Shown here in pieces: positions 21,529 to 45,374 of a stretch of DNA of 64,000 nucleotides. Source of the stretch: Alphaproteobacteria bacterium. Its GTDB lineage: Bacteria > Pseudomonadota > Alphaproteobacteria > Micavibrionales > Micavibrionaceae. Position numbers and translations under genes: made by a program. Position 1 is the first letter of the stretch. The number at the start of each line of letters is the position of its first letter. The notes beneath the pieces are model-generated. The model ran no database searches. It was not told where the DNA came from and worked only from the letters and a program-made list of their open reading frames with translations. The stretch is from NCBI GenBank assembly GCA_027482195.1, contig JAIXWE010000053.1, positions 3,308-67,307 of the forward strand. Reading direction: 5' to 3'.

Positions 21529-22772
<1,244 letters not shown>

Positions 22773-30316: not shown

Positions 30317-30326
30317 CGGTAATAAT

Positions 30327-30342: not shown

Positions 30343-30349
30343 TTAAAAG

Positions 30350-30357
30350 CGTGAAAC
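30350..30357 (+). promoter_or_regulatory. CGTGAAAC motif copy upstream of ORF 30534
   Basis: AAAAGCGTGAAACAC, read directly. Confidence 0.45.
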
Positions 30358-30533: not shown

Positions 30534-31550
30534 ATGGGGTTGCCAACCGGAATTATAAAACAAGATTGGGTTCGGCATTCTGCTCCACAATCCGATAATG
30601 TTTCTCTCCCTCCTAAAAAAGATGGTCAATTTTATATTTCGTCGAATGGTTCGATTTTTCGTCACTATAAACATGAAGATGATCGTTTAATTCTTGCTCC
30701 CGCAAATGTGATTGTACATGAAAAAAATAAAAGCGCGAATGATCGCAATAAGCGCGAAATGTTAGAGCGACTTCGTTTGCTGATTGAGATGCGTGATTTG
30801 GTCATGAATATATTACATCTTCAAGAAAAAACACCTGACGATTCTGTTTTGTCTCCGTGGCAAGATTTACAAAAAACTTTGAAAAAAAAGTATGGTATTT
30901 TTTTAGAAACTTTCGGCCCAATTTATAAAACGGAAAGTGATCATTCTTATCCAAACTTAAGAAAATTTCGTAAAGATCCTGATGGGCACCGTGTTGCTTC
31001 CTTGATTGAAAGTTGCGATGACTTAAAAAATCATACTGGCGTTGGTGATATTTTTAACCCGCGCGTTCTCGCACATAACAGTGATGGTCTTGCGTTGACG
31101 AGTCATCATCAAAGCCTAATAGAGATTCCTCAATCGAGGAATTTCTTAAAACCATGTTTTGTGTTATCAGAAGAAAATTTTTTCCCCTTCATGCGTCAAT
31201 TTTTCAAGCTTCATCCTTTGGCAAATCTTTTCGTCATTGATCAAGATCAATGGATTGATGATGGCGCGAAATTGTCAGTTGATGAAAAAATGGAACGCTT
31301 TGTAAATAAGGTTAATAATAATTCATGGGATGGCATTTTAATCATGCCAGTTCATTTTAAAAAGTTGGTCAAGCACAAGTATTTTGATCTCATGAATGTG
31401 GATCATTATTTCATCGATGAATCTATTCAGTCACATACAATTGATGCGGCCGCCAAGATTGACGAGAGTCTTATATCTAAATTTACGGTGCCGGAGAGTA
31501 AGAAGCCCCCGCGCGCGGCATGTTATGATCCACCATCTCTCGCGGCGTAG
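30534..31550 (+). CDS. Hypothetical protein, possibly a collapsed remnant of a mobile-element methylase/SNF2-type helicase fusion gene
   Basis: 338-aa ORF with colinear short blocks (EMRDLVMNILHLQE, LKKKYGIF, FRKDPDGHRVASLIE, GDIFNPR, WDGILIMPVHF, VDHYFIDESIQ). These recall the linker and DExH-box region of those large proteins. No Walker A and no methylase motifs are present. The 3' end overlaps the convergent gene by 68 nt. Confidence 0.4.
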   Translation: MGLPTGIIKQDWVRHSAPQSDNVSLPPKKDGQFYISSNGSIFRHYKHEDDRLILAPANVIVHEKNKSANDRNKREMLERLRLLIEMRDLVMNILHLQEKTPDDSVLSPWQDLQKTLKKKYGIFLETFGPIYKTESDHSYPNLRKFRKDPDGHRVASLIESCDDLKNHTGVGDIFNPRVLAHNSDGLALTSHHQSLIEIPQSRNFLKPCFVLSEENFFPFMRQFFKLHPLANLFVIDQDQWIDDGAKLSVDEKMERFVNKVNNNSWDGILIMPVHFKKLVKHKYFDLMNVDHYFIDESIQSHTIDAAAKIDESLISKFTVPESKKPPRAACYDPPSLAA

Positions 31551-32655
31551 CAAAAAACGGGTTAGTATCCTGTGTAGTTAAAATCGATCGATCAAATTCA
31601 CATGCATGGCCTTGTTGATCCGCAATAAATTGTAAAAGCTGACGTCTAAAACGATAACTGGTTCCATAGGCGATTTTTTCACAAACCTCTTCACCTAAAA
31701 TCTCTCGTGCCGCATTATATAATAGCGCGGCATCAGCTTCGTTATCATTACCACCTGAGAATTTGGGAGCGCGCTGCGTGTTATTGGCCAGATTAAAATC
31801 GCGTATCGCAAACAACATTGGCAATGCACGTGGTAAAAATCCGGTGTCCTTGGGAACAAAGTCATGATAGGGCGGCTTTGCCGCCGCACCGGTGGATGTT
31901 TTTGGCATATCCGTTCCGCATTCCAAACTCATGATAGTTGAATCATAAACGCTTCGGAAATAATCTGCGCCGTAAACAACATTGCGACTTGCATAGGCGT
32001 GCACCGAAACTTTTTGAATAGATTTCCATGTAAACTTTGTTTGCAAACGTGCCTCTTGTTCCGCCATCAAAATGCGGCGTACTTTTTCATGATCGCCGTC
32101 CATCCATGCTTCATAATTTATAACAGAATCGAAATCGACAGGATTGGAGACATCTTTCAATTTTTCCCAAGCATGAGCAATTTGTCGTTTTGCATCATCT
32201 GGATTCAAAAACCCGTGCGGATAACCTAAAACAACAGCAATACCAACATTCGGATAATCTTTTAAAAATTCAATAAGGGGGGTGATTTTATCCGTGTAGC
32301 CATTATCACCAAAATCTCCCCACGTACAGACGGCGCGCATCGGGAAAGGATACGTGGCCTCTCGCGCCATGCGTGTCATCCATTCTTTTGGTTCGTTGCG
32401 CGTGTTGCGTAATGTTGTGTGGTCTGTGCGCGCCAAAACCCACTCCATTCTTTCTGCAGTAATTTCAGGGTGAGAAAAATATTGCGCGTAATGATCTGCA
32501 ATTTGGCAAGATCTAAAATAAATCTCCCGCGCATGCTCACGTTGTGATGATAGGGAATCTTTGATGGAAAGACTTGTAAATACAGGAGAGGGGGCAATGG
32601 GGGGAGTGCTAGGTACAGATGATTTGAGCAACATGACAATCCCCACAACAGTCAA
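31483..32655 (-). CDS. Deoxyribose-phosphate aldolase (DeoC/DERA) family protein, divergent, with an N-terminal extension
   Basis: It is colinear with E. coli-type DeoC: TDHTTL (MDLTTL), GIAVVLGYPHGFLNPDD (IATVTNFPHGNDD), VDFDSVINY (VDVVFPY), MPKTSTG (FIKTSTG, Schiff-base Lys at 31900-31902), APKFSGG (GFKPAGG) and YRF. The track start is TTG, and the first in-frame ATG is at 32634. Confidence 0.6.
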   Translation of the reverse strand: MTVVGIVMLLKSSVPSTPPIAPSPVFTSLSIKDSLSSQREHAREIYFRSCQIADHYAQYFSHPEITAERMEWVLARTDHTTLRNTRNEPKEWMTRMAREATYPFPMRAVCTWGDFGDNGYTDKITPLIEFLKDYPNVGIAVVLGYPHGFLNPDDAKRQIAHAWEKLKDVSNPVDFDSVINYEAWMDGDHEKVRRILMAEQEARLQTKFTWKSIQKVSVHAYASRNVVYGADYFRSVYDSTIMSLECGTDMPKTSTGAAAKPPYHDFVPKDTGFLPRALPMLFAIRDFNLANNTQRAPKFSGGNDNEADAALLYNAAREILGEEVCEKIAYGTSYRFRRQLLQFIADQQGHACEFDRSILTTQDTNPFFATPREMVDHNMPRAGASYSPAP

Positions 32656-32715
32656 AAATTTATCCTAGCTTTAGCTAACAAATTCGTGATGTCTTTACAA
32701 GAAAACATTGGTTAA

Positions 32716-32744
32716 CGTGAAACAGTTTAAAGCGTGAAACAGTT
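32716..32744 (+). promoter_or_regulatory. Two perfect copies of CGTGAAACAGTT spaced 17 bp start to start, in the divergent promoter region
   Basis: The copies at 32716-32727 and 32733-32744 are identical 12-mers. They lie between the DERA-like gene (minus strand) and the giant-protein operon (plus strand). Confidence 0.6.
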
Positions 32745-32876
32745 CGGCTTTTCTTGAGTTTATCGCATCTAAAAGTTCGAAAAAAATCATCCCAATTTAT
32801 TTTGTTAGGTGATGCTAATTTAAGTTGACGGCTAAAGTTTTTTTGATTTAAAGGAGGACTATCAGAATATTTTAAT

Positions 32877-35561
32877 GTGTCACGCATCACCAAGAAAGTT
32901 ATAGAGATGGAAACACCTCTTGTAACCACGGCAAGCAAGTGGATAACAACGCAACCGCGTTATCCGGGTGATTTATTCCACAATTTCGATTTATATTATC
33001 CCAAACCTGATTACACGGATGACTATTGGAAGGCGCAACATATTAATGCGGAAACCATGGCGTCTTTTGAATCGCGCTCAAAATGGGCCTATATCAACCA
33101 AGCCATGTTTTATGCTTCTGCTTCAAGTGGGCGTGCGGCCTATGATATGGCACGGCGCTATCCTGAAAAAATATTGATCGGAAGTCGCAAATTTACAACA
33201 CCAGATGACGAACAATTTATGACGATTCAGTGTTTGAAATCAGCCCTTGATTCAAACGCACTGATGGGTCCTTTTGTATTAGCCCAAAATTACCGTGATA
33301 ATATGATTGCAGCAGGAATTGCTGCGCAAAATCTCACTGATCCACGCACGGGGGAGCGCAATGTTTATATTGTTGGGCCGCCGCATCGTGAAGCTTTTAT
33401 TCGCAGTTTGAAGCAATACCCGACATTATTGCGGGGTGCTGGTTACGAAGATGCAACATTCGAAATTCACTTCTGGGGGCCTTTTTGCACATTTGATGTG
33501 ACGCACGGCATTTATTCGGGGGATCATGCATGGTCGCGTAATGCTGCGATGGAAAAAGCTTCTGCGCTCGCTACTCAATATGGTGTTCCATTAATTTCAA
33601 TGTATCGCAGTGGTCGCGGATGTGCCGTTGTCGATATTTACAATCAATCTATCTCTCCGCTTGATCAAGCATGGGAAGATGCACGCCACATTGTTGATGT
33701 GGTTGGCCAGACTGTCCGGTTTAATGGCTCCGATTATTTCTTCCGTACTGAAGCAGCCGTCATGTTGTTGCTCACGCGCTTTTTATACGATGATTATGTG
33801 CGTAACGGAACGGGGGATCTTGTTCCAAGCTTAATGGATCCGGCGGTAAAGGCACATTATGCTTCGCCGGGTGAAATTGAAAAAATGGATATTTTGAAAC
33901 GCCATATGCTTCCCTATATGGCGAATTTTTGTAATTGGCCGACATTGCATCGCGCATTAAATAATGATCCTGCGTTAAAAGCTTACTGGGAAGAGAATGT
34001 TATTCCTCATTACGGGCAGATGGATAACAAAGCGGAAACGGAAGCAAAGATTCTAAGCTATCTTCCGCGCGGCGGTTGTGCTGATCAAGATTTGATGAAA
34101 AAAGTTTCTGAGTTGCGCGATCCGCGTAGCAAAAGTGTGTTTATGTCTTCATCAAATGAGAACGCACAATTTGCAAAACCGCCCATGTCACAAGGATTGC
34201 ATGAAGAAGCGTTTTCATCTGAATACGATCCGCTTATTTTTAATGACCGCAACTTTGCACGATTAAATGCAACATCAAATCCTAACCAAGATCCATCACC
34301 AACACATTACAGTTTTGAACAATCGGCAGCCATTATGGTTTTGGCGGGCTTTCGTAATAAAGGTTTGGTGCCTTTTGACGCGCCGCGGACATTATTATTT
34401 CTCGATGGTGCAAGCCAAGGTGAAATGCCTAAAAAATTCCGTGAAGATAAAGGCGTGTCTCATCCATCAGAAATGGGTGCAATATTTGATGTTTTATCAC
34501 GCGGTGGTGAAAACTTTGCCGAAAGTGTAGGTGAAGAAAATGCAGCAAATTTAAAAGATTTAACCCGGCGGATGATGTTTCATCCTTCTTTTGAGTTATG
34601 GCGCAAAAAACATGGTGTGGGTAATATTATTCCTGTATCTGATTTTTCGGCTGCTTTTGCCCAATTTGAAGGGCGGCGCGAAGCAACGAATACGGAAGTG
34701 CACGAAGCCATTGATGCGCGCGGGTCGATGAAAATAACTTCGGCCACGAGTGAGGCGACAGTGCGCCGTTATATTGCCGTCGAAGCACAGGGAATAGTTA
34801 TTCCGAGTGGCGATATTGATGAACGCAGCTATCGTTACATCACAGATGGTGTCTTGGCAACGATCGGTAAAACACCGCGCCCAAATTCTGGTGGTAAATA
34901 TCAATTCGAGTTTTTCTTGAAATCATCCGGTGATGATCAGATTAAAAAACTTGATTTGGCTGATTTGATTATCCTTGTTGGGCTTCAAGTTAAGTCTGAT
35001 TTAGAAAAAAAGACGCCGGCAAAACTAAAAGATCGTTATGTATCAATGGCGCGGCTACTCAATATCTATGAATATCTTATTGATCCTGCGCAACGGAATC
35101 AGGTTTACAAACGTGACTCATTATCTGGTGCAGATTCTCAGAAAAGCATAATTGATTGGAAGCAAGTTGATCCTGATTTTAGTGAATTTATAACCTATAC
35201 CCCCACTTTTGATATTTCTATTTTTGATAAAGATGAAGAATATCAAAAATTTTCAAATAATACATTGGACTTGCAAACATATTTATTTGATCCCGTGCAA
35301 AAATCAAAACTGGTTCAAATGATATGGGCATGGATGGTGGCTGCACCCATTAAGGTGCGAGAAATTGGTAAGGATATGCCAACACGTGGAAATTTATTAG
35401 CGCGGGCGATTAAGGATTTTGACGATCGTGATTTGATTGATCTGCCTAGTGAGTACCGCGACGCCAAGAAATGGTGGGAAGGCATGAACGCGCGGCAGCG
35501 TAAAGAGTTTTTTGAGCAAGGAACTATTCATTTACAAGGGCCCGCAGTTGATGTGCGTTAA
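32877..35561 (+). CDS. Hypothetical large protein (894 aa), first gene of the giant-protein operon
   Basis: Long uninterrupted ORF in which I recognise no catalytic or nucleotide-binding motif. The start is ambiguous: GTG at 32877, or ATG at 32907 preceded by a 9-codon mini-ORF. Confidence 0.6.
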   Translation: MSRITKKVIEMETPLVTTASKWITTQPRYPGDLFHNFDLYYPKPDYTDDYWKAQHINAETMASFESRSKWAYINQAMFYASASSGRAAYDMARRYPEKILIGSRKFTTPDDEQFMTIQCLKSALDSNALMGPFVLAQNYRDNMIAAGIAAQNLTDPRTGERNVYIVGPPHREAFIRSLKQYPTLLRGAGYEDATFEIHFWGPFCTFDVTHGIYSGDHAWSRNAAMEKASALATQYGVPLISMYRSGRGCAVVDIYNQSISPLDQAWEDARHIVDVVGQTVRFNGSDYFFRTEAAVMLLLTRFLYDDYVRNGTGDLVPSLMDPAVKAHYASPGEIEKMDILKRHMLPYMANFCNWPTLHRALNNDPALKAYWEENVIPHYGQMDNKAETEAKILSYLPRGGCADQDLMKKVSELRDPRSKSVFMSSSNENAQFAKPPMSQGLHEEAFSSEYDPLIFNDRNFARLNATSNPNQDPSPTHYSFEQSAAIMVLAGFRNKGLVPFDAPRTLLFLDGASQGEMPKKFREDKGVSHPSEMGAIFDVLSRGGENFAESVGEENAANLKDLTRRMMFHPSFELWRKKHGVGNIIPVSDFSAAFAQFEGRREATNTEVHEAIDARGSMKITSATSEATVRRYIAVEAQGIVIPSGDIDERSYRYITDGVLATIGKTPRPNSGGKYQFEFFLKSSGDDQIKKLDLADLIILVGLQVKSDLEKKTPAKLKDRYVSMARLLNIYEYLIDPAQRNQVYKRDSLSGADSQKSIIDWKQVDPDFSEFITYTPTFDISIFDKDEEYQKFSNNTLDLQTYLFDPVQKSKLVQMIWAWMVAAPIKVREIGKDMPTRGNLLARAIKDFDDRDLIDLPSEYRDAKKWWEGMNARQRKEFFEQGTIHLQGPAVDVR

Positions 35562-35585: not shown

Positions 35586-38500
35586 GTGATGGTTAAGTTT
35601 TCTGATGCACTGACAGAAAACTACTCACTTGATATGTGGTTGCGGCGTTTGGGGCTTTGGCGTCATAAGCCAATTGGTTTAATGACGATTGATGAACGAA
35701 AAGCATATCTTCATTCAAATGCCTTCTCAAAACCTCTTGTTTTAACGGGATCCTCTTACGACCCTGAAGGCTATCAGCTCATCAGCATGATGTCGCTTAC
35801 GCACTATGATCATGTAAGTGGTATTCTTGATGATAAAATTATTTATTGGCGACACACATTGGATGATGATGTTGATGAAGCAGGTAAAATTCCATTTCAG
35901 GATTATTTTGTTTTAGGGATACGCGGTGTCCGTGATGATCACCTAACGGGTGAGGGTGTTCCGGTTATTGTGCCGGATCAAATCTGGTGGAACGGGAATT
36001 TGGTCTTTAATGGTCCAGCAAATGGGGGGCGTCATGATCCGGAGCGCCCTGAACAACAACGTCAAATTAATCGCTATCTTGAGATGAGTCAGCAAGTTAA
36101 AGAGCATTTAAATAGAGGTTTGCCGCTTGAAAAAATTGGCCATGTGTTCTCACAAGATGTGTTGAGTGATCATTTCTCTGCGCGCGCTCTTGGGGGCGCG
36201 CCTTTCTTGCGTGGTTTAAGCTCATCAGGATGGGATAACGTGGAGCGGCTTCTTGGGGCAAATTTTGTTGACTTGTTTCAAAAAGAAGATCAGAGAATTT
36301 CATTTCGTCTTCCATCCTTACCTGAAATCTCTTCACTTGATCGCTTAAAAGCTCTTCATGGTTTTTATATCAACAGTGTGGAGCCAATACGCTGTTTAAG
36401 TGAGCAATGGGATAAATATGCCTCTGATATGCGCACGGGAATGGGTTATGTCACAGAAACGAATTACTTTTTTGATGAACAAAAGCAACGTCATATTTTT
36501 TCAGTGCGTATTGCCTCAGAAAATCCACCTAAGGATATGCCAAAATTTGAGCCATATGAATTAATACGCCTTGAATATACTCAGGGTGAGGATGTTTTTA
36601 CGCTGGAAGATTCATTCTTTATGGGTGTCAAAGATAAGAAATATCAAAAAAATAGTGATTTTTTAAGTCTTATTGGGGCTTTGCAAGATACAAATCAAGC
36701 CCTATCTGAGCGCATTTTTCCTGATTATCAATCTATTTTAATGCGCAATAAACTTCATAATCGTATTAGTGAATTTCGCATGCCGCCAAAATTATCAGAC
36801 GGGGGCGAGGCGTTGTGGATTCCATTATGGGGAACCAATATGCGCAAAACGATTGAAGAGTTTGGGGATGGTATTGGTGGTGGAAATTTATTTATGCATC
36901 GTGGGCGTGATGATGATAACCACCTTGATGAAATTGCCGTGCTACATGGCTTGCCGTATCAGCCGGGAAGCCCAGACTCGAATTATAAAGGTGCACAGCC
37001 GAGTTTAGTGCCTTATCTTGATGCCTTGCGCCGTGGTGCGATCATCATTGATCACATTCACTTTGATCACTCAACAATTGAGTTTTATGCGACACAAAAG
37101 GATCAAAGTGGTAACGGTTGGTTCAAAGGGCAAAAAATTATTTGTAAAGGTATAGATGCCTATATCATGAAAAATCGTCTTTTGCGCCTGGGTGTTAAGC
37201 AAGATCAGTGGCCAGAATTTATTGAATTTGATCGTGATGATGCGTTTGCGCGTTACCCCAATCTCTTTAAAGATAGAAACGGAAATTTTGCTTATCGCAT
37301 TCAAGATGAAAAAGGCAACACGCGCGGATGGAATCAGATTTGTAAAGATGGAACAAGCCATTCAGCGTTGACGGACTCTTACCTTATTACAATGTGTTAT
37401 AATAATAATTTACTTGATACCTATTATATCGATAGTGATGCGAACGGGCTTAACGACAACGGATGGAAATTTGCAGAAGACGGCCAATTTGCGCTTGAAG
37501 GCATTGATGGAATTACACGCGAAGATTTATTGAAAGCTGTTAAGTCAGAAGATAAATTATATATCTCACTAGAAGAGCCGACAGGAATTACGCGTACTGG
37601 GCGTTGTTCTACACCTGAGCAATTCAAAGATACATTCCGTGCATTAGAAAAAGCATTACCCGAAGGCTTTGCGCATGGCGTCATTCCTTTTTCAACCAAT
37701 CATTTGGAATATCAAGCTATTCGTGAAGTATGGGCCGAAAAAGATACGTTGCGGCATACGACAGCGGTTGGCGCCAACGCCCAATTGCGGGATACGGCAT
37801 TAAATATATATGGGGTCAATCCTAAACTTGATTTGCGCACAGTGACTATTGCGCATGATCATATTCCGCAATTAGTTTATGAGCTTTTATATGATGGCAT
37901 GATTGATTTCATGATAAAGGCTGAGAAAAAAGCGTTACGACAGTCAAAAAGAGAATACGAAAGCAGAACATTAGATGAGATTTTAAATGATGATGTGGTG
38001 TATCAAAAAGTAAAAGCAATTTTTGATACTCATAAAGATAATTTTGATCATGGCGTATCGCAACCGATTGAGTTTTATAATGGATTTTTGAATAACCAAG
38101 ACGGTGATTTAACAAAATTGATGCAATCATGGTTGCGCAAATATACCAAAGTATTTTGGGAAGGTGCAGATAAATTATCAACCGCATATAATGGAAATAC
38201 GTGCAATTTTATGCTGTCTAAACTAATAAGCAAAGGGATGGTCACATTTGACTCCCGTTGCGGTCACAATGATTACAATATGTATCAAGCCATTATGGTG
38301 AAGCAAGACCACGCTTCTGTTCACGGTGTGCGTACCGCAAAACGCACCAAAAGATTTAGAAATGACTATGGACAGCTTGGCTTTATTTCAACTGACCCAT
38401 TGGGGACTTCGGACAGTCGCTTCGGGTCAATGTCGCGTTTTGCAAATGGTGACTCACTCTTTGACTATGATGAATTTGTGCGTAACACAGGTTACAAGAT

Positions 38501-39335
38501 TGATCCTGAGAAACTTATTCTCACAGTGACACAAACCGCGAGCATGGGATCTGATGCATGGAAATCTCAAGATCAGCTTATGCAGAAAATTTCACATGAC
38601 CGTGGTGTGACAGTTTTTTGTGCGATTGATGACGGCTTTAAAATCTATAATCCGCGTGAGCATCGCGCGCGCTATGAAGCGATGTGTCGTGAAGAAGGAT
38701 GGAGCTTCACGGGCGACGGTCGCATGATGTATATTCATGCTGCGCATTCGCACATTCAAGGTCACAGGCGTGAGCAAGATATGCGGGATAAAATGACTGA
38801 CCCCCGCTATAAACCAAAATTGGTGGAAGTCATTCATTGCCCAAGTGTTGAGAGTTTGAATATTCTTAAAAATGTCGTGCGTGATGCGGGTCATCGCATG
38901 ACGATCAAAGAGCCGGAAAATAATATCGCGCGCGCATGCGAGTGGGATGAGAAAACACAATCTTATAACATGATTGATAAAGACTATTTAAGTGAACGGA
39001 TGATGTTAATCAATTGGGCCGCAAAATATGGTCAGATGTATAATTGGGTTGTAACAATGACCGAGGCAATTGTGATGCCAAAACGTGGTGGTGCACGGGC
39101 TGATCCACTTACAATGCGGTCACATTTATGTAGCGAGTTCCAGCAACAAACCGCATTGCGAAACACAGCAAGCTGGATAAGACCAAAATTTGGTAACAGT
39201 AGCCGTGGGCGAGCTTTAGGGCCTGCGCCCGCCGATATTCGTGAGGAGGGTGGAGCTCCGCCTGCTCCTATGATGACCGATATGTTACGCCGCGCCTTAA
39301 TATCAAGCTCCGCACGGAGATTGCAGAATGTTTGA
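35586..39335 (+). CDS. Giant protein (1249 aa) with an RNase J-like metallo-beta-lactamase/beta-CASP core
   Basis: GGAG lies 8 nt before the ATG at 35589 (GTG at 35586). The HxHxDH motif IIIDHIHFDHS is at 37053-37070. RNase J-like blocks occur in order: WIPLWGTN..IGGGNLF, SLVPYLDAL, GTSHSALTDSYLI, YYIDSDANG, HIQGHRREQDM. About 400 N-terminal residues have no motif I recognise. Confidence 0.6.
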   Translation: MMVKFSDALTENYSLDMWLRRLGLWRHKPIGLMTIDERKAYLHSNAFSKPLVLTGSSYDPEGYQLISMMSLTHYDHVSGILDDKIIYWRHTLDDDVDEAGKIPFQDYFVLGIRGVRDDHLTGEGVPVIVPDQIWWNGNLVFNGPANGGRHDPERPEQQRQINRYLEMSQQVKEHLNRGLPLEKIGHVFSQDVLSDHFSARALGGAPFLRGLSSSGWDNVERLLGANFVDLFQKEDQRISFRLPSLPEISSLDRLKALHGFYINSVEPIRCLSEQWDKYASDMRTGMGYVTETNYFFDEQKQRHIFSVRIASENPPKDMPKFEPYELIRLEYTQGEDVFTLEDSFFMGVKDKKYQKNSDFLSLIGALQDTNQALSERIFPDYQSILMRNKLHNRISEFRMPPKLSDGGEALWIPLWGTNMRKTIEEFGDGIGGGNLFMHRGRDDDNHLDEIAVLHGLPYQPGSPDSNYKGAQPSLVPYLDALRRGAIIIDHIHFDHSTIEFYATQKDQSGNGWFKGQKIICKGIDAYIMKNRLLRLGVKQDQWPEFIEFDRDDAFARYPNLFKDRNGNFAYRIQDEKGNTRGWNQICKDGTSHSALTDSYLITMCYNNNLLDTYYIDSDANGLNDNGWKFAEDGQFALEGIDGITREDLLKAVKSEDKLYISLEEPTGITRTGRCSTPEQFKDTFRALEKALPEGFAHGVIPFSTNHLEYQAIREVWAEKDTLRHTTAVGANAQLRDTALNIYGVNPKLDLRTVTIAHDHIPQLVYELLYDGMIDFMIKAEKKALRQSKREYESRTLDEILNDDVVYQKVKAIFDTHKDNFDHGVSQPIEFYNGFLNNQDGDLTKLMQSWLRKYTKVFWEGADKLSTAYNGNTCNFMLSKLISKGMVTFDSRCGHNDYNMYQAIMVKQDHASVHGVRTAKRTKRFRNDYGQLGFISTDPLGTSDSRFGSMSRFANGDSLFDYDEFVRNTGYKIDPEKLILTVTQTASMGSDAWKSQDQLMQKISHDRGVTVFCAIDDGFKIYNPREHRARYEAMCREEGWSFTGDGRMMYIHAAHSHIQGHRREQDMRDKMTDPRYKPKLVEVIHCPSVESLNILKNVVRDAGHRMTIKEPENNIARACEWDEKTQSYNMIDKDYLSERMMLINWAAKYGQMYNWVVTMTEAIVMPKRGGARADPLTMRSHLCSEFQQQTALRNTASWIRPKFGNSSRGRALGPAPADIREEGGAPPAPMMTDMLRRALISSSARRLQNV

Positions 39336-42300
39336 CAAGAACAATCAACGCATCGCACGTAAACGATTTTTATGGCCACAAGTCACGCGCGGTGAGTTAA
39401 TGAACTTGACGATTGATTTTGAAACAAGCGGTTTGGATCGCCAAAATGTCCCTTATGCAACAAAATCATACTCTTTTACTACAGAATATGGGGATGCTCT
39501 GACTGATTTTGCGGGAAACTATTTAAACTCGGCTCAAATTTTTCCGCGTCGTCCTGATTGGTTGGTTGCACAAACACCGGCATTGATCTTACAGCGTACA
39601 CCAACGGGGCCTGCGGATTTAGATGACGAATCTCGGATTCCTTATTCTCAAGCGTGGGCGGCAATTTCATGGCGTATTGAACAAGCTATGTTCGCCTATG
39701 ACCAATTTGGCCATCCGACGAACATTATTTCAATCGCTGACTATGATAAAAGTTTTAAGCACGGCCAAAAAGATGCTATTGAGACTGTCATTGATATTCC
39801 TCTTTTGGATGATAACGGGGAAATCGTTTATGACTTAAGATACCATCCTGAACGCCGCAAAATTTCATATCGAATTGATAGAGATCCGCAAAGCCCTTAT
39901 TACCGTGTCCCGCATAATATTTATTACAAAGACAAAGATGATAAATCGTTATGGAAATGGGTTGATCCAAGCTTATACGTTGATTTTTATAATGCTCGTT
40001 TTGATTTGCCGCATTTGCGGATGCAACTCTATCGCACCGGATCGGATCCCCAGGATACAACATTTTTATATGCACGCGGTACACCAAGCAACAAACAACG
40101 CAAGCGCGGCCATATTGTTGATGTCCGCCACGTGGCTTACGCTACGGCTCTTTACGGACCGCAAGGTGAGCAAGGCTTAAATCTTGGTCGCATTATTGAT
40201 GAACGTGGCCGTATAAGAAATTCCGAGGCCTTATCAGCCTATCTATCCTCGAATTCCAATTTTGAGAATCCAATGCGTTTGATAAAGCAAGGTATCTTTA
40301 TGCCAGATGGGTCTTTGCATGATCCTAATATGGATCATGGCGCAGCCTACGATGCCCTTGGTACGGTTGCATTACGTAACCATTGTTGGGATATTGCGCC
40401 GTGGGTGTGCGCCGAAGTGGTGCGTCAATCCGATGATAATGACCGCCGTCATTTTTTAATGCGCCAAGATCCGGTCCGTACGATCTTTCCGCTTTATACA
40501 TTGCCGCGCCGTCAAGAAGGCTTAAGTCACAGCGATCAACTTTATTGGTATTTGGGCAATGATAATGCGCTTGGAGATTTCAAGGATGACATTTTTCTGC
40601 GCGTGGACGGCAAATTAAGGCACGAGACATACAAAGAAAAATTATTGAAGGATTTATCTGTTGAAGAGTGGGTCGAATATCTTTCCTTAAAGGTCACGTC
40701 ATCAGATCCTGATCGCGCCGTAAGAATGGAATCGCATCGTTTGGCACCACCTGCTTTTGCTTTTGATGATGTTGTCAACTACACATCCCAGGGCGGTAAA
40801 TATAAATCGCGCTTTAAAGATTTATCGCAAGACATCAAATATATCACTGAGAACGAACAAATGCGGGAACGTATTTTCTCAGCTATCGCATTAAAAAATG
40901 AAGTGCGTCGCAAAAATGCACATGTGCCTCATGTCAAACTTTTAGAGGATGAATTGCCATCCCAATACTCTATCGAAGTAAGTTTTCAAGACGATGCACG
41001 ACGTGAGGAGCAGCGGCAGCAGTTTATAAAGTCGGGTTATAAAGGGCCAGAAATTCAGCCAGGCATTTTAGATACAATCAAAAATGCCATGGATAATGTC
41101 TATAAATTTCAACGTCAAATTGACTCGGCGTCTAGACGTTTATGCTTGAAGGCTCATCCAATTGACTTTTTTAAAGATTATGAACTCGATGATTTTGCTC
41201 ACATGCAGGATCCAGATATTGCCGCTGTTCTTCAAAATTATACTGATTTATGCGAACGTGTTTATAGCATTTATAAAAAGAAGGAGTCTTCTTATAAAGA
41301 CTTTCTTGATGAGATTGTAAATCCTGTGACTGGTGGATCTTTCTTTAAAAAGGGACGATTTAAAGCACAAACGGTTGGACAAGCATTTTATTTTCGCAAA
41401 GAGTTGATGCGCCGTGCCCTTAATGATTATGATATCTTACTATCCTATAAAGGTTCGGACACGCATAAAAAATCATATATTGAAGGAGTGGTTGATAAAA
41501 AAGTTTATTCCTTATCGCATCGCGGTAAGCAACTTTTTCTCTTTGCCGACCCAGATAATGGTGTTCAGGGATCACAGCCATTTTTAGTCGATGAATATGG
41601 CCGGAGATTGGAACTATCCTACATTAAGTCTATTTCTCCGCGTGATGCGATTAATCTGCTTGTAAATGAAAATAAATGGGAAATCCGTTTTTATCGTCTA
41701 AGATCAGATCCAACAATTTTAAGGCTGGCTCAGCGGGCGCTTGATCTAGACATGGGTAATATTATCCCGCCCGCTATTTTGCACATGTATCAGGCAGATA
41801 AAAGAAACCGCCATCTGATCCTTCCGAACGAGACACCAACAACGTCACGTATTCCGACATTACTCACAGACGAAATTGACATTACGCGGCTTGAAATTGC
41901 TGCATCCAGTCAATCGCCTTTGATTTTGGAGCGCGCAGAAGATTCTGCATTATCGGTTGCCGCGCGCCTGATCAAGCAAGATGAGTCATGGCGTATTTTA
42001 TCAAACTCACGTGCTTATAATACAGAAATGACATCTTCTGCCTTGAGTTGGCAGCCATGTTTATCTGCTGCTATGTTTGACCCTGTAAGTAATTTGCCTT
42101 ACGAGTTTATCGAGCATCTTATTCCGCGTGATAGCTCAAAAGATTTTGAGGATGATCCTAATATTATCATCATTGATGTTCCGGTATGGCATGCGCATTA
42201 CCCTATCGAGCAATATGACCCGCGTCTTCCTTTTCGCGGCCTGGTTATAGATGATATTCCAAAATATCAACGCGAACTTATCCGCGAGAATCGCCGCCAT

Positions 42301-43107
42301 GTTGTTATTCGTGTCAAAGAAACGGGGCAAATGTTTGCATGTGGGCGAACATCGCTTCATACCGTTCAATCAAATGATAAATCATTTTCAAGTATTCTTG
42401 AGAAGGCCAGTAATGATTACCTGCAATCCGGCCACAAACTTTCGGATAAAAAAAATCTTTTGTTTTTGGGAATTGAAAAACTATACCCGATAGCAAATAC
42501 CCGCCCGATTGATCAATCTTACCAGTCCTTATCACTTGCCAGCCCTCAATTTTATGGCCTTGTATCGCCGTGTTTTGCAAATTTACGGGACACATTTTTA
42601 ACAGCAGCTATTGTCCCATATGATTACGCATCACAACGTTTTATGAAGGGGGATCCTATCCACTTGCATGAAATGGAAGGACAAATTTTTGCGTCATCTA
42701 ATGGGCAGCGTAATCCCAACACAGGGCATATGTATGAATCTATCCTCGATGATATCAAGGGGGTTGACGAGAATGGTAATAAGCAAGGCATTACAATCGA
42801 GCAAATAATGCGCGACATTCGAAGTGGTGACTTGTCATCGGAATTTGTGAGAGCGGCCGGATTTTTAGGCCCTGATCATTTGGAGCAACATCTGCACGAT
42901 TGGACGGCGGCGCGTTTTAAATCAAATCCAGATCAGGAAAAATTTTTATTATGTTCCTTTGCACCGGTGAATGAGGTTTACCGTGAAACAGGAAGGGAGA
43001 AAGATAATAAATGGGTTTATTTTGATGGTCTTTCTGTACCAAGGGCGGCCATTTCGTGGGATGGGCAAATGCCACCACCTCAAAGTTATCGGCGGGTTTT
43101 TGTATAA
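39328..43107 (+). CDS. Giant protein (1259 aa) with an N-terminal exonuclease I (SbcB)-like DEDDh 3'-5' exonuclease domain
   Basis: Exo I motif IDFETSGLD (39412-39438), Exo II FYNARFDLPHL (39985-40017) and Exo III HGAAYDALGTVAL (40336-40374). The start overlaps the upstream stop by 8 nt (ATGTTTGA). About 900 C-terminal residues have no motif I recognise. Confidence 0.6.
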   Translation: MFDKNNQRIARKRFLWPQVTRGELMNLTIDFETSGLDRQNVPYATKSYSFTTEYGDALTDFAGNYLNSAQIFPRRPDWLVAQTPALILQRTPTGPADLDDESRIPYSQAWAAISWRIEQAMFAYDQFGHPTNIISIADYDKSFKHGQKDAIETVIDIPLLDDNGEIVYDLRYHPERRKISYRIDRDPQSPYYRVPHNIYYKDKDDKSLWKWVDPSLYVDFYNARFDLPHLRMQLYRTGSDPQDTTFLYARGTPSNKQRKRGHIVDVRHVAYATALYGPQGEQGLNLGRIIDERGRIRNSEALSAYLSSNSNFENPMRLIKQGIFMPDGSLHDPNMDHGAAYDALGTVALRNHCWDIAPWVCAEVVRQSDDNDRRHFLMRQDPVRTIFPLYTLPRRQEGLSHSDQLYWYLGNDNALGDFKDDIFLRVDGKLRHETYKEKLLKDLSVEEWVEYLSLKVTSSDPDRAVRMESHRLAPPAFAFDDVVNYTSQGGKYKSRFKDLSQDIKYITENEQMRERIFSAIALKNEVRRKNAHVPHVKLLEDELPSQYSIEVSFQDDARREEQRQQFIKSGYKGPEIQPGILDTIKNAMDNVYKFQRQIDSASRRLCLKAHPIDFFKDYELDDFAHMQDPDIAAVLQNYTDLCERVYSIYKKKESSYKDFLDEIVNPVTGGSFFKKGRFKAQTVGQAFYFRKELMRRALNDYDILLSYKGSDTHKKSYIEGVVDKKVYSLSHRGKQLFLFADPDNGVQGSQPFLVDEYGRRLELSYIKSISPRDAINLLVNENKWEIRFYRLRSDPTILRLAQRALDLDMGNIIPPAILHMYQADKRNRHLILPNETPTTSRIPTLLTDEIDITRLEIAASSQSPLILERAEDSALSVAARLIKQDESWRILSNSRAYNTEMTSSALSWQPCLSAAMFDPVSNLPYEFIEHLIPRDSSKDFEDDPNIIIIDVPVWHAHYPIEQYDPRLPFRGLVIDDIPKYQRELIRENRRHVVIRVKETGQMFACGRTSLHTVQSNDKSFSSILEKASNDYLQSGHKLSDKKNLLFLGIEKLYPIANTRPIDQSYQSLSLASPQFYGLVSPCFANLRDTFLTAAIVPYDYASQRFMKGDPIHLHEMEGQIFASSNGQRNPNTGHMYESILDDIKGVDENGNKQGITIEQIMRDIRSGDLSSEFVRAAGFLGPDHLEQHLHDWTAARFKSNPDQEKFLLCSFAPVNEVYRETGREKDNKWVYFDGLSVPRAAISWDGQMPPPQSYRRVFV

Positions 43108-43402: not shown

Positions 43403-44455
43403 ATGGCCTTGTATCGGCAAGAAACAGGAAAATTCAAAATTGACGAGCGCGAGATCGATGCGACGTTACGTGGTGACGTTTTGCCATTACACACCGCGCC
43501 ATCATTGTCTCAAGATGAAGACGAAGCAATAGAAAATGAGGCAGGTTTTGGTGAGGGTCATACCCGTACGCGTGCCGCGTTATCAGAGTTTACAAATGCT
43601 GATCCGTTAAATGCCGCCGGTGCAGCGGAGAAATTGCGCCGCGATATTAACAGCCCACTTAACATCGGTGGTGGTGGCGGTGCGCTTTACACCGAAGATA
43701 AAAATCCATGGGGTCAAAACAAAGACGAGAAAAAAGACGACGTTGCCCAAAACGCCATGGGGGATATGGTTGAGCAAGCGCAAGAAAGTTTAAAGCGCGA
43801 TCGTGAGGTCATGCAACGCCAACGTGAAGAGCAATGGGCGAACATGATGAACGATGAATACGGCATCAACCTGACACCGGGGCAGTGGAAGCGCGTTGAA
43901 GATATCATGTCGGACGATTCCAAGCGCAAAAAACACTTTGATGATTTGCAAAAGAAAAATGGGTGGACAGACAAACAACGCGACGAAGCCGAAAAGGCAG
44001 CGATGGAGATTATTCGCCTCAAACAACTTTATGCCCAAGGGAAGATTTCCGAAGATGAACTTAAAAAACGCATGGGCGATCTCAAAGCCGAAAACCCAAC
44101 AGCTTTTAAAGATGCAGGAAAATCTGTTGAAGCAATCAGCGAATTTGATAGTAAGGATGCCAGTACAAAAATTACTGATGCAAGCGCACAATCGCGCGTG
44201 AAACAAACCGATGATGTTCAGGTTGCACGTGTTGAACAGAAAGCAGAGGTGAAAGCGTTACCATCCGGAACCCCGCAGTCCCAAAGTGATGTATCATTTG
44301 GGCGGGCACAATTTCCAACCGCTCCAAACGCGACGAATGATTTTAGCGCGGTGAATAATCCACAACCTGCAAAAGTTGAGACAGCACCAGCGGCACAACC
44401 AAACCCGGTACAGATAGCGAGCATTGAGCGCAAATTTGACGCCGTCGCGTTGTAA
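43403..44455 (+). CDS. Hypothetical highly charged protein (350 aa)
   Basis: GGGGAG lies 8 nt upstream of the ATG. The centre is rich in Lys/Glu/Asp/Gln helical sequence and the tail is Pro/Ala/Gln-rich. I recognise no motif. Confidence 0.5.
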   Translation: MALYRQETGKFKIDEREIDATLRGDVLPLHTAPSLSQDEDEAIENEAGFGEGHTRTRAALSEFTNADPLNAAGAAEKLRRDINSPLNIGGGGGALYTEDKNPWGQNKDEKKDDVAQNAMGDMVEQAQESLKRDREVMQRQREEQWANMMNDEYGINLTPGQWKRVEDIMSDDSKRKKHFDDLQKKNGWTDKQRDEAEKAAMEIIRLKQLYAQGKISEDELKKRMGDLKAENPTAFKDAGKSVEAISEFDSKDASTKITDASAQSRVKQTDDVQVARVEQKAEVKALPSGTPQSQSDVSFGRAQFPTAPNATNDFSAVNNPQPAKVETAPAAQPNPVQIASIERKFDAVAL

Positions 44456-44472
44456 AATCAAAGATTATAAAA

Positions 44473-45291
44473 TCAGGGATTAAGAGCCGCCAAGGTGGTG
44501 GGGGCTGATGATGTGCTCGCCGCCGCAACTTGTGGTCCTTTATAAAAAACGCTTGCAAGTTCAGTCGGGCGCGTTGCGGATGTTGTCGCCATAGTGCGCG
44601 TTACACCATCGCCATCAACAAAATGAATCCCCCCCTGACGGGTTGGCAAAGCATTCGGGCTATAACCAAAAATAAGGCGTGGGCCATAACGCTCACCGCC
44701 CTTTTCGGGGACTAATGTATCAGCCACAATCGCAACGCGATACCCGGCGGCATAACGTTTGGGAAGGCTTTCATCATTAACAGCCGCGCTTCCGAACGTA
44801 TCACGTGCCAATGCCGCGCGTGAAACGGCCGGGTCAATGCCGGTTAAGGCGGCTTGAGGAATGCGGTCAGATCCAGGGCCCGAAGTTGGGAAAACTTTGA
44901 TATTCGCCATAGTGATACCAACACAGGCCTTTGTCGGGGCGGATATAAAATCATACCCCACACCATTTTTTATGCCGCGTGACGCGGGCAATGTGCCATC
45001 GGCGTTGGGTTGAATTTTAAGGGGTGAATTAAAAGCAACGACATAGCCGCGTGAGCCGTTTGCGTTTGAATAAAAAATTTGACCGTCTTCGCCAATATTT
45101 TGTTGGTTGCCCATATAAATAGGAGCCATTTTTTCAGCACCTAGCTCGGTGCGCAATTGCGCGATTTCCGCATCACCATTGTAGCATTTTTCTTCCACTG
45201 CCGCATTTACCGCGGTTGCACCTGCGCAGATGGCAAACGCGAAGGCGGCTGCTGTTTTTGCGGTTTTCAAAGCTAAAGATGTGCGTGTCAT
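44473..45291 (-). CDS. Hypothetical secreted protein
   Basis: From the internal Met there is a clear signal peptide (MTRTSLALKTAKTAAAFAFAICAGATAVNA). I recognise no motif. The ORF extends to 45360. Confidence 0.5.
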   Translation of the reverse strand: MTRTSLALKTAKTAAAFAFAICAGATAVNAAVEEKCYNGDAEIAQLRTELGAEKMAPIYMGNQQNIGEDGQIFYSNANGSRGYVVAFNSPLKIQPNADGTLPASRGIKNGVGYDFISAPTKACVGITMANIKVFPTSGPGSDRIPQAALTGIDPAVSRAALARDTFGSAAVNDESLPKRYAAGYRVAIVADTLVPEKGGERYGPRLIFGYSPNALPTRQGGIHFVDGDGVTRTMATTSATRPTELASVFYKGPQVAAASTSSAPTTLAALNP

Positions 45292-45358
45292 GGCAATCAC
45301 CAATTTGTTTTTGTTTCTTGAATGCTTAAGACTATATATCAAAACACCCCGTCTTGGC

Positions 45359-45374
45359 AAATTTCACGTAAAAT
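45359..45374 (-). repeat. Right copy of the 16-bp perfect inverted repeat (AAATTTCACGTAAAAT on the plus strand)
   Basis: It is the reverse complement of 30327-30342. It lies 68-83 nt upstream of the ATG at 45291 and 59 nt from the tRNA-Ser 3' end. Confidence 0.9.

What the first reader, a model, noticed from the sequence alone, without database searches (positions are those of the whole stretch)
39328..43107. 1259-aa protein starting with an SbcB-like DEDDh exonuclease domain followed by about 900 aa of unknown sequence
All three DnaQ-superfamily motifs are present in the right order and spacing:
- D-x-E in IDFETSGLD.
- N-x2-F-D in FYNARFDLPHL.
- H-x4-D in HGAAYDALG, the DEDDh subtype.
Flanking stretches resemble E. 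coli exonuclease I as I recall it. FPRRPDWLVAQTPALILQRTPTG resembles CKPADDYLPQPGAVLITGITPQ, and GHIVDVRHVAYATAL resembles RWDLLDVMRACYAL. Exonuclease I is about 475 aa, so the 900-aa extension and the translational coupling to an RNase J-like protein are unusual.
Basis: partly seen in the sequence, partly recalled or inferred. Interest (0 to 1): 0.7.

Follow-up and report, generated by a model that had tools for sequence, protein, structure and literature searches.

The report
Giant exonuclease I-like protein in nuclease operon
This 1259-residue protein begins with a real but very divergent relative of the DNA-trimming enzyme exonuclease I. It always sits beside, and is sometimes fused to, a second giant nuclease-like protein, in a rare, unannotated gene cluster whose biological role is unknown.

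Summary
No Pfam, NCBIfam, PADLOC, PHROG or PDB-sequence search matches the protein directly. Four results still support an exonuclease I (SbcB)-type DEDDh domain:
- D30, E32, D226, H337 and D342 are invariant in 17 close homologues (34-46% identity) and kept in 32 distant ones (about 20% identity).
- The AlphaFold model of residues 1-480 best matches DEDDh exonucleases.
- A family profile reaches a genuine ExoI-family protein at library-wide E = 1.2e-4.
- hhalign to that protein gives 95.8% probability, with all three motifs in register.

ExoI-like sequence runs to about residue 545 and carries a roughly 95-residue beta insertion. The remaining roughly 715 residues are helical and then beta-rich, with only an ASCH/PUA-like fold hint.

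The gene is the last of a conserved set: a 760-900 aa protein of unknown function, a roughly 1100-1250 aa metallo-beta-lactamase/beta-CASP protein, and this protein. A DeoC-like aldolase gene is usually adjacent. One clade adds an SNF2-like helicase, which in this window is only a 338-aa remnant. One natural 2503-aa protein fuses the two nucleases.

Most likely this is the 3'-5' exonuclease subunit of a new two-nuclease machine that probably acts on DNA. Its role (defence, repair or catabolism) is unresolved.

The parts
39328..43107 (+). Whole ORF, 1259 aa: the giant ExoI-like protein ('w1259').
   Evidence: ORF list and translation. 17 full-length homologues of 1249-1380 aa among 5.8 billion clusters. 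72 representatives at 50% identity clustering, nearly all 1100-1380 aa.
39328..40437 (+). Residues 1-370: DEDDh (DnaQ-like) 3'-5' exonuclease domain of the exonuclease I type.
   Evidence: hhalign to the ExoI-family protein P0088: 95.8% probability, E = 8e-9. Foldseek top hits are 3'hExo/ERI1, ERI2 and oligoribonuclease. AF2 model pLDDT 77.6, pTM 0.82.
39415..39423 (+). Exo I motif, D30-F-E32.
   Evidence: Invariant in 17/17 close homologues and 31/31 distant ones that cover the position. Aligns with D-T-E of P0088.
39688..39972 (+). Residues about 121-215: beta-rich insertion inside the exonuclease domain, absent from ExoI.
   Evidence: Unaligned gap in hhalign against P0088. Six strands with high pLDDT in the model. 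A similar extra spacing is seen in the distant member P0072. Contains invariant R171, H173, N197 and Y200.
39991..40005 (+). Exo II motif, N222-A-R-F-D226.
   Evidence: N222 and D226 are invariant in the close set. D226 is D in 31 and E in 1 of 32 distant sequences. Lies at the start of helix 223-236 after strand 216-220. Aligns with N-V-H-G-Y-D of P0088.
40336..40353 (+). Exo III motif, H337-G-A-A-Y-D342 (DEDDh subtype).
   Evidence: Invariant in 17/17 and 32/32 sequences. Lies at the N-terminus of helix 339-356. Aligns with H-G-A-L-A-D of P0088.
40438..40962 (+). Residues about 371-545: region corresponding to the SH3-like part of ExoI (Pfam Exonuc_X-T_C).
   Evidence: hhalign continues to P0088 residue 264. 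P0088 residues 242-372 align to residues 381-513 of the distant giant member P0056, and P0056 212-448 aligns to family-profile positions 250-481. Short strands are modelled at 389-479. The boundary is approximate and inferred transitively.
40963..42057 (+). Residues about 546-910: mostly helical, family-specific region, unassigned.
   Evidence: AF2 model of residues 431-1259: pLDDT 82, pTM 0.69, long helices. No significant PDB fold or sequence match. No similarity to the ExoI C-terminal domain.
42058..43104 (+). Residues about 911-1259: beta-rich region. I place a possible ASCH/PUA-like domain here, but the fold search gave no coordinates.
   Evidence: Strand-rich in the model. Best viral fold hit is an ASCH-domain protein (E = 3.2e-4, prob 0.99), with further ASCH hits. 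Weak ASCH/EVE hits in PDB, prob 0.25. Highest density of invariant residues in the protein: 25 of 349.
39328..39335 (+). 8-nt overlap (ATGTTTGA) of this gene's start with the stop of the upstream gene.
   Evidence: Sequence read directly. Similar tight junctions in the related loci.
35586..39335 (+). Upstream partner, 1249 aa: metallo-beta-lactamase/beta-CASP nuclease-like protein.
   Evidence: Invariant HxHxDH (HIHFDH, nt 37053-37070) plus H591, D617, H1055, H1059 and H1083 in 12 homologues. Homologue L015_1066 (E = 4e-218 to the family HMM) carries Pfam Lactamase_B_2. RNase_J_b_CASP hits in P0066 and L014. Fused to the ExoI-like protein in P0066.
32877..35561 (+). First gene of the operon, 894 aa, no recognisable domain.
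   Evidence: Syntenic in the eight related loci that cover this position (L005 is cut short). Homologues of 712-778 aa accompany the distant variants. No Pfam or PDB-sequence match.
31483..32655 (-). Divergently transcribed 390-aa DeoC/DERA-like class I aldolase.
   Evidence: Family profile against PDB: deoxyribose-phosphate aldolases, E = 3.8e-10. Residues matching DERA's Asp and two Lys are kept in 5 of 6 loci. A Pfam DeoC gene also lies next to the distant variants L014 and L015.
30534..31550 (+). 338-aa ORF: a remnant of the roughly 1400-aa SNF2-like helicase that accompanies the cluster elsewhere.
   Evidence: 40% identity to the first ~200 residues of the L002 helicase, plus a 26% identity piece matching its ResIII region. 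Full helicases in L001, L002 and L003 carry ResIII, SNF2 or Helicase_C hits.
32656..32876 (.). Divergent intergenic (promoter) region with two direct CGTGAAAC copies, at 32716 and 32733.
   Evidence: The same motif occurs twice upstream of the helicase remnant (30311, 30350).

Best explanation
**What the protein is.** The ORF encodes a giant, highly divergent relative of exonuclease I.
- Residues 1 to about 545 form an ExoI-type DEDDh 3'-5' exonuclease domain plus an SH3-like domain. All five catalytic residues are intact, and a family-specific ~95-residue beta insertion is present.
- Residues from about 545 to 1259 form a helical and then beta-rich extension found only in this family. It may end in an ASCH/PUA-like nucleic-acid-binding module.

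**How it probably works (inferred).** It is not a free-standing SbcB. It is the 3'-5' exonuclease subunit of a complex with the translationally coupled metallo-beta-lactamase/beta-CASP protein, which by family analogy would be an endonuclease or 5'-3' exonuclease. The 894-aa protein is probably also part of the complex. Together they would degrade a nucleic acid from both polarities.

**Substrate (inferred).** DNA is more likely than RNA, because ExoI relatives act on single-stranded DNA, a deoxyribose-phosphate-aldolase-like enzyme is a recurrent neighbour, and an SNF2-type translocase is attached in one clade.

**Shown versus inferred.** Shown: homology, motif conservation, synteny and the natural fusion. 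Inferred: catalytic activity, complex formation, substrate and biological role.
For: **Identity of the domain**
- DEDDh residues are invariant in 17 close and 32 distant homologues.
- Fold matches are to DEDDh exonucleases.
- A profile search reaches an ExoI-family protein at E = 1.2e-4 across 1.84 billion sequences.
- hhalign gives 95.8% probability with the motifs in register.
- Intermediate giant members link to ExoI residues up to about 372.

**Partnership with the neighbouring proteins**
- The four genes w390(-)/w894/w1249/w1259 are syntenic in the nine close loci where contig ends and rearrangement allow: L005 is cut short and L006 lacks w390.
- The trio is kept in distant variants.
- The start/stop overlap or near-abutment is conserved.
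- P0066, 2503 aa, is a natural fusion of the two nuclease-like proteins.

**Nature of the partner**
- HxHxDH and other His/Asp residues are invariant.
- Homologues carry Pfam Lactamase_B_2 or RNase_J_b_CASP hits.

**Leaning towards DNA**
- A DeoC-like neighbour with its catalytic residues kept.
- An SNF2-like helicase in one clade.
Against: - No library profile (Pfam, NCBIfam, PADLOC, PHROGs) or PDB sequence matches the window protein directly.
- Foldseek E-values for the N-terminal model are only 0.01-0.06, and the models rest on 17 sequences. I could not inspect model coordinates to confirm that the five residues cluster.
- Some signals point to RNA instead: beta-CASP proteins include RNase J, and ASCH domains are usually linked to RNA.
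- In this window the helicase is only a remnant, so the system may be decaying here, or the helicase is dispensable.
- No activity, complex or phenotype has been shown.
Confidence: 0.6

Rival explanations
1. Anti-phage or anti-plasmid defence system. The two giant nucleases are effectors that destroy invading DNA, the SNF2-like helicase and the C-terminal ASCH/PUA-like module help find or discriminate the target, and the cluster spreads horizontally. This names a biological role and is compatible with the mechanism above.
For: - The family is very rare, and its few taxonomically labelled members are scattered: 72 clusters among 1.84 billion; Micavibrio, Pseudobdellovibrionaceae and assorted Alphaproteobacteria MAGs.
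- It is inserted between different housekeeping genes in every locus.
- GC content is about 0.41-0.43 against 0.45-0.50 in the flanks, next to a tRNA-Ser gene.
- The helicase resembles DrmD/BrxH-type SNF2 helicases, and its N-terminus matches a DarB-like phage profile.
- The accessory gene set varies between loci.
Against: - None of the six window proteins matches any of 5027 PADLOC models.
- No known defence genes, integrases or transposases lie next to any locus.
- No relatives occur in the plasmid or phage collections.
- No att-like repeat of the tRNA was found.
- The helicase matches cover generic helicase motifs only.
Confidence: 0.35
2. Chromosomal DNA repair or recombination end-processing machine. 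Two large nuclease subunits of opposite polarity, plus a motor in some lineages, would act much as RecBCD, AddAB or AdnAB do. The DERA-like protein would handle sugar-phosphate (abasic or dRP-type) residues through Schiff-base chemistry.
For: - Two coupled subunits of ~1100-1250 aa recall AddAB and RecBC in size (from my own knowledge of those systems).
- ExoI itself works in recombination and mismatch repair.
- Neighbours are housekeeping genes, with no mobile-element genes.
- The DERA catalytic Asp/Lys/Lys are conserved.
Against: - No UvrD/RecB-type helicase or PD-(D/E)xK nuclease domains were found.
- The helicase is missing from many variants and degraded in this window.
- Its rarity argues against a core repair function.
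- The DeoC-like protein in L003 has lost all three catalytic residues.
Confidence: 0.2
3. Nucleic-acid catabolism or salvage. The nucleases would break DNA down to nucleotides, whose deoxyribose-5-phosphate is then cleaved by the DeoC-like aldolase. Such a pathway could be useful to predatory or host-dependent bacteria.
For: - A DeoC-family gene recurs beside the nucleases in both close and distant variants.
- Two of six named genomes belong to predatory groups, Micavibrio and Pseudobdellovibrionaceae.
Against: - The N-terminus begins directly with the conserved domain and does not look like a signal peptide (by eye).
- No nucleotidase, phosphorylase or transporter genes are linked.
- Multi-domain proteins of 1100-1250 aa and an SNF2 helicase are hard to justify for bulk catabolism.
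Confidence: 0.1
4. RNA-processing or RNA-degrading complex: an RNase J-like beta-CASP enzyme plus a DEDDh 3'-5' exoribonuclease carrying an ASCH RNA-binding module.
For: - RNase_J_b_CASP Pfam hits occur in partner homologues.
- The best viral fold match for the C-terminal part is an ASCH domain.
- Many DEDDh enzymes are RNases: ERI1 and oligoribonuclease are the top fold hits.
Against: - The nearest detectable sequence relatives belong to the ExoI (ssDNA) branch, including its specific Exonuc_X-T_C region.
- A deoxyribose-specific aldolase-like partner and an SNF2-type dsDNA translocase are associated.
Confidence: 0.12

Closest known systems
Exonuclease I (SbcB) family: Pfam RNase_T (PF00929) plus Exonuc_X-T_C (PF08411)
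   Same:
- Homology continues past Exo III into the SH3-like region.
- hhalign 95.8% to the ExoI-family protein P0088; library-wide profile hit at E = 1.2e-4.
   Different:
- A ~95-residue beta insertion between Exo I and Exo II.
- No detectable ExoI C-terminal helical domain.
- About 715 extra residues of unknown fold.
- Never matches the Pfam models directly.
- Always paired with, or fused to, an MBL/beta-CASP protein.
Other DEDDh exonucleases: ERI1/3'hExo, ERI2, oligoribonuclease, RNase T
   Same: Best structural matches of the N-terminal model: 4qoz_B (E = 0.011, prob 1.0), 7n8v_A (TM 0.61 on the target), 6a4f_A.
   Different: - Those are small (180-350 aa), mostly RNA-directed enzymes.
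- Sequence identity is only 10-16%.
- They have no shared accessory domains.
Beta-CASP metallo-beta-lactamase nucleases (RNase J, CPSF73, SNM1/Artemis), as a comparison for the partner protein
   Same: The partner has HxHxDH and further conserved His/Asp residues. Its homologues carry Lactamase_B_2 or RNase_J_b_CASP hits.
   Different: - About twice the size of RNase J (from my own knowledge).
- No direct Pfam or PDB-sequence hit for the window copy.
- I know of no described pairing of a beta-CASP nuclease with an ExoI-like protein, and the literature searches found none.
Two-subunit helicase-nuclease machines (RecBCD, AddAB, AdnAB), by analogy only
   Same: Two translationally coupled subunits of ~1100-1250 aa with nuclease chemistry, and an associated motor protein in some loci.
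   Different: No UvrD-like helicase or RecB-type nuclease domains were detected. This is a functional analogy, not homology.

Membership tests
DnaQ-like DEDDh 3'-5' exonuclease superfamily | Three Exo motifs supplying D, E, D, D and a His (H-x4-D) in canonical order. | tested here: met
   D30, E32, D226, H337 and D342 are invariant in 17 close homologues. In 32 distant ones they are kept, with one D-to-E change at 226.
DnaQ-like DEDDh 3'-5' exonuclease superfamily | RNase H-like alpha/beta fold, with the motifs on strand 1 and at the N-termini of the Exo II and Exo III helices. | tested here: met
   In the AF2 model, D30/E32 lie on strand 25-34, N222/D226 at the start of helix 223-236, and H337/D342 at the start of helix 339-356. 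Seven of the eight top Foldseek hits are DEDDh exonucleases, with E = 0.01-0.06 and prob 0.93-1.0. I could not check spatial clustering of the residues.
DnaQ-like DEDDh 3'-5' exonuclease superfamily | Significant match to the Pfam RNase_T (PF00929) profile. | tested here: not met
   No hit at E <= 0.1 for the protein and none at E <= 10 for any of 17 members; only RNase_H_2 in 3 of 17 at E = 0.028. The link is transitive, through P0088.
Exonuclease I (SbcB) family | Homology to ExoI-family proteins across the exonuclease domain. | tested here: met
   Profile hit to P0088 (which passes RNase_T and Exonuc_X-T_C) at E = 1.2e-4 across 1.84 billion proteins. hhalign 95.8%, E = 8e-9, 257 columns.
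Exonuclease I (SbcB) family | ExoI-specific SH3-like plus C-terminal domains (Pfam Exonuc_X-T_C). | tested here: inconclusive
   The SH3-like part is supported transitively: hhalign reaches P0088 residue 264, and P0088 242-372 aligns to the giant member P0056. There is no direct Pfam hit, and the ExoI C-terminal helical domain is not detectable.
Exonuclease I (SbcB) family | Single-gene, ~475-aa three-domain architecture. | tested here: not met
   The protein is 1259 aa, with an insertion and a ~715-aa extension. Nearly all 72 family representatives are 1100-1380 aa, and the gene is always in an operon with an MBL-like partner.
Exonuclease I (SbcB) family | Processive 3'-5' ssDNA exonuclease activity and binding of the SSB C-terminal tail. 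| not testable with these tools
   Biochemistry is required.
Known anti-phage defence systems (PADLOC-DB v2) | Match of the component proteins to the models of a described system. | tested here: not met
   Zero hits for all six window proteins. The helicases from related loci give only weak, generic SNF2 matches such as DrmD, BrxH and DpdE.
Beta-CASP metallo-beta-lactamase nucleases (partner protein 35586..39335) | HxHxDH plus downstream His/Asp motifs, and a beta-CASP insert. | tested here: inconclusive
   HIHFDH and H591, D617, H1055, H1059, H1083 are invariant. Homologues carry Lactamase_B_2 (L015) and sub-threshold RNase_J_b_CASP (22.8 bits against a cut-off of 27). The window copy has no direct Pfam or PDB hit, and no structure was predicted.

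The most novel reading that the evidence does not exclude
The cluster would be a previously undescribed class of nucleic-acid-destroying machine. Its core is a 760-900 aa protein of unknown function, a giant beta-CASP metallo-beta-lactamase nuclease and a giant ExoI-like exonuclease, with a usually adjacent DERA-like aldolase and, in one clade, an SNF2 helicase. Two nucleases of opposite polarity would be physically joined, and a Schiff-base aldolase-type enzyme would act on deoxyribose in or from DNA. It would serve as a new immune or DNA-processing system in Alphaproteobacteria and predatory bacteria.
Probability: 0.3. Interest if true: 0.85.

Novelty: new variant of a known kind. Interest (0 to 1): 0.66.

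Why it matters
Exonuclease I is a textbook single-gene DNA repair enzyme. Here its catalytic core is embedded in a protein nearly three times larger. That protein belongs to an unnamed family with no Pfam, NCBIfam, PADLOC or PDB representation. It is always partnered with, and once fused to, an equally large metallo-beta-lactamase nuclease, and it recurs next to a deoxyribose-phosphate-aldolase-like gene.

If the proteins form one machine, it would be a new design for degrading nucleic acids from both ends. It would also be a candidate new defence or repair system. The C-terminal ~715 residues and the 894-aa partner would be new folds or domains to characterise. The family is small (72 clusters), so a few experiments could settle its function.

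Tried and rejected
**Searches that found nothing for the protein itself**
- Direct scans of the protein and its neighbours against Pfam, NCBIfam, PADLOC and PHROGs found nothing for the three large ORFs.
- Family-profile searches against PDB sequences for the ExoI-like, MBL-like and 894-aa families found nothing.
- DNA searches of the cluster in plasmids and E. coli genomes, and protein searches in plasmids and phages, gave no match.

**Attempts to find related loci and names**
- The exact-sequence contig look-up of P0001 found nothing on record.
A 7-sequence alignment then worked.
- The cluster-member look-up gave no names or accessions.
- The homologue search for the 338-aa remnant found only itself.

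**Structure and domain checks**
- Foldseek of the C-terminal model against PDB gave no significant match.
- The ExoI C-terminal domain does not align with residues 431-1259.
- The extension shares no paralogous domain with the MBL-like or 894-aa proteins.

**Context checks**
- No tRNA-Ser att-like direct repeats bound an island.
- The CGTGAAAC promoter motif is not conserved in other loci.
- Literature searches for the new Pfam accessions of the helicase and for this domain combination found nothing relevant.

**Readings rejected**
- It is not an ordinary SbcB orthologue: the size and architecture tests fail.
- It is not a member of DISARM, BREX or Dpd: the helicase matches cover generic motifs only.

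Full report
**1. The observation**

The window holds an ATG-initiated ORF at 39328..43107 (+) of 1259 codons.

Its start codon overlaps the stop codon of the preceding 1249-codon ORF by 8 nt (ATGTTTGA), with a GGAG 9-12 nt upstream. All homologues begin with the same MFDP-type N-terminus, so the start is correct.

**2. Direct library searches fail**

Pfam, NCBIfam, PADLOC and PHROGs give no hit for this protein or for the two large ORFs upstream of it. A profile of the family finds nothing among PDB sequences. Scanning each of 17 family members separately against Pfam at E <= 10 yields only RNase_H_2 in three members, at E = 0.028.

**3. The family and its conserved residues**

A search of 5.8 billion protein clusters returns only 17 proteins. 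All are full length (1249-1380 aa), 34-46% identical to the query, and carry no name or Pfam domain. In their alignment only 71 of 1259 columns are invariant, yet D30, E32, N222, D226, H337 and D342 are all among them.

An exhaustive HMM search with residues 1-480 against 1.84 billion representatives widens the family to 72 clusters, almost all 1100-1380 aa. In 32 of the most distant members (about 20% identity):
- D30 and E32 are present in 31 of the 31 that cover the position.
- D226 is D in 31 and E in 1.
- H337 and D342 are present in 32 of 32.

The refutation test "acidic residues not conserved in homologues" therefore fails clearly.

**4. Fold**

An AlphaFold2 model of residues 1-480 has pLDDT 77.6 and pTM 0.82. 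It rests on a 17-sequence alignment. It places D30/E32 on the first strand, and places N222/D226 and H337/D342 at the N-termini of helices, as in DnaQ-like exonucleases.

Foldseek against PDB puts DEDDh exonucleases on top: 3'hExo/ERI1, ERI2 (TM 0.61 on the target) and oligoribonuclease. PAN2, Maelstrom and B-family polymerase exonuclease domains appear lower in the list. E-values are only 0.01-0.06, although probabilities are 0.93-1.0. ExoI structures are not among the listed hits.

**5. The link to exonuclease I**

One hit of the exhaustive search is P0088 (523 aa, library-wide E = 1.2e-4). It is a genuine ExoI-family protein: it scores 35.1 bits on RNase_T and 39.2 bits on Exonuc_X-T_C, both above Pfam's cut-offs.

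hhalign of the family profile against P0088 gives 95.8% probability and E = 8e-9 over 257 columns. It aligns:
- IDFETSG with FDTENSG.
- YN-ARFD with YNVHGYD.
- DHGAAYDA with AHGALADT.

Residues of about 120-200 have no counterpart in P0088. They form a beta-rich insertion with high model confidence.

P0088 also aligns with giant distant members up to its residue 372. That lies well inside the Exonuc_X-T_C match of P0088 (residues 216-472; by recollection of the ExoI structure, the SH3-like domain). For example, P0088 242-372 aligns with P0056 381-513. By transitivity, ExoI-like sequence reaches about residue 545 of the window protein. The ExoI C-terminal helical domain is not detectable.

**6. 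The extension**

A model of residues 431-1259 (pLDDT 82, pTM 0.69) shows a long helical part, at about residues 480-910, and a beta-rich part, at about 930-1259.

PDB fold search gives nothing significant. Weak ASCH/EVE (PUA-like) hits appear at probability 0.25. The viral structure library gives an ASCH-domain protein at E = 3.2e-4 (prob 0.99), plus three further ASCH entries. I treat a C-terminal ASCH/PUA-like module as a lead, not a result. Its position could not be read from the output.

The extension shares no detectable domain with the neighbouring large proteins.

**7. Genomic context**

Nine related loci were examined: three found by exact-protein look-up and six from GTDB genomes. The named genomes are a Micavibrio MAG, a Pseudobdellovibrionaceae MAG and four Alphaproteobacteria MAGs. 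The same order recurs in eight of them (L005 is cut short): a ~390-aa gene on the opposite strand (absent in L006), then ~900-aa, ~1250-aa and ~1260-aa genes.

*Helicase.* L001, L002 and L003 also carry a ~1400-aa SNF2/ResIII helicase. In the window only a 338-aa remnant is left: its N-terminal ~200 residues plus a fragment of the ResIII region.

*Distant variants.* These keep the trio of a 712-778 aa, a 1066-1187 aa and a 1107-1233 aa protein. HMMs built from the close members confirm this homology for three loci (L012, L014, L015), and for the 761-aa protein of the fusion locus L010. Two of them have a Pfam DeoC gene just downstream.

*The ~390-aa gene.* It is DeoC/DERA-like, with E = 3.8e-10 to solved deoxyribose-phosphate aldolases. 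The residues that match DERA's Asp and two Lys (the catalytic assignment is from my own knowledge) are kept in five of six loci and all lost in L003.

*The ~1250-aa partner.* It has an invariant HxHxDH and further conserved His/Asp residues. A homologue at E = 4e-218 carries Lactamase_B_2, and two others carry RNase_J_b_CASP hits.

*Natural fusion.* P0066 (2503 aa) fuses the partner (hhalign 100%, residues 24-1027) to the ExoI-like protein (99.7%, residues 1197-2337).

*Flanks.* Flanking genes differ in every locus and are housekeeping genes. No integrase, transposase or known defence gene is nearby. The cluster has somewhat lower GC than its flanks and lies next to a tRNA-Ser gene, but no att-like repeat was found.

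**8. Interpretation**

*Well supported:*
- The N-terminal ~545 residues are a divergent ExoI-type DEDDh exonuclease with an intact catalytic set.
- The protein belongs to a rare, unannotated family of giant proteins.
- It is functionally tied to an MBL/beta-CASP nuclease-like protein, as shown by synteny, coupling and the fusion.

*Inferred:*
- The two proteins, together with the 894-aa protein, form one complex that degrades nucleic acid with opposite polarities.
- The substrate is DNA. This rests on ExoI ancestry, the deoxyribose-aldolase-like partner and the SNF2 translocase. The RNase J-like and ASCH signals keep RNA open.

*Undecided:* the biological role. My rough weights are defence against foreign DNA 0.35, repair or end processing 0.2, RNA processing 0.12 and catabolism 0.1. 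These name roles and are largely compatible with the mechanism proposed above.

**9. Comparison and novelty**

The protein works like, and descends from the same stock as, exonuclease I. It fails the architectural definition of that family: its size, the insertion, the missing C-terminal domain and the obligatory partner. It also never reaches the Pfam models.

No paper in the searchable library describes this combination. I classify it as a new variant of a known kind. The surrounding system may be new in kind.

**10. Limits**

- Both structure models rest on only 17 sequences.
- Foldseek E-values for the N-terminal model are marginal.
- I could not inspect model coordinates.
- The domain boundaries at about 545 and about 910 are approximate.
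- The host organism of the window was not identified.

Noticed in passing
window 30311-30357 and 32716-32740: The octamer CGTGAAAC occurs 8 times in the window. Four copies cluster in the two promoter regions of the cluster: two upstream of the helicase remnant (one inverted) and two direct copies 17 nt apart in the divergent intergenic region. This may be an operator for a local regulator. The motif is not found in the equivalent regions of other loci.
   Followed up: partly
window 30534-31550: The 338-aa ORF is a deletion remnant of the ~1400-aa SNF2-like helicase that accompanies the cluster in L001, L002 and L003. It also matches a DarB-like antirestriction PHROG (E = 7.7e-9). L006 carries a similar 250-aa stub (2746-3498). 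The helicase therefore appears dispensable, or the system is decaying here.
   Followed up: partly
window 31483-32655 (-); L003 1678-2910 (-): The divergent gene is a DeoC/DERA-like aldolase with ~125 extra N-terminal residues. The residues matching DERA's Asp and two Lys are kept in five loci but all replaced in L003, so an aldolase-dead version exists in one lineage.
   Followed up: partly
L010 5942-13453 (protein P0066): A 2503-aa natural fusion of the MBL/beta-CASP-like and ExoI-like proteins. It is preceded by 761-aa and 150-aa genes and followed by an 89-aa gene.
   Followed up: yes
window 43403-44455 and 44473-45360 (-): Between the cluster and the tRNA-Ser gene lie two genes with no counterpart in the related loci. 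One encodes a 350-aa charged, low-complexity protein with a weak SHOCT-like match. The other encodes a 295-aa protein with a hydrophobic N-terminal stretch that resembles a signal peptide (by eye).
   Followed up: no
window 21529-22698 (-) and 22774-23376 (-): A DNA methyltransferase with N6_N4_Mtase and RAMA domains (I take it to be CcrM-like) lies next to RNase HII. Together with SMC, Obg and PepN in the window, this points to an alphaproteobacterial chromosome of about 45% GC. The organism was not identified.
   Followed up: no
L001, L003 (helicase genes): The associated helicases carry precomputed Pfam families PF28553 (WH_1), PF28554 (DUF8437) and PF28555 (Helicase_dom). These are absent from the local Pfam copy and from the searchable literature. 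The helicase family has thus been catalogued recently, but without a described function.
   Followed up: partly
window 39688-39972 (residues 121-215 of the protein): A confidently modelled beta-rich insertion lies inside the exonuclease domain. It contains invariant R171, H173, N197 and Y200, a similar extra spacing is seen in the distant member P0072, and it is absent from ExoI. Its role is unknown; it could be an extra substrate or partner surface.
   Followed up: partly
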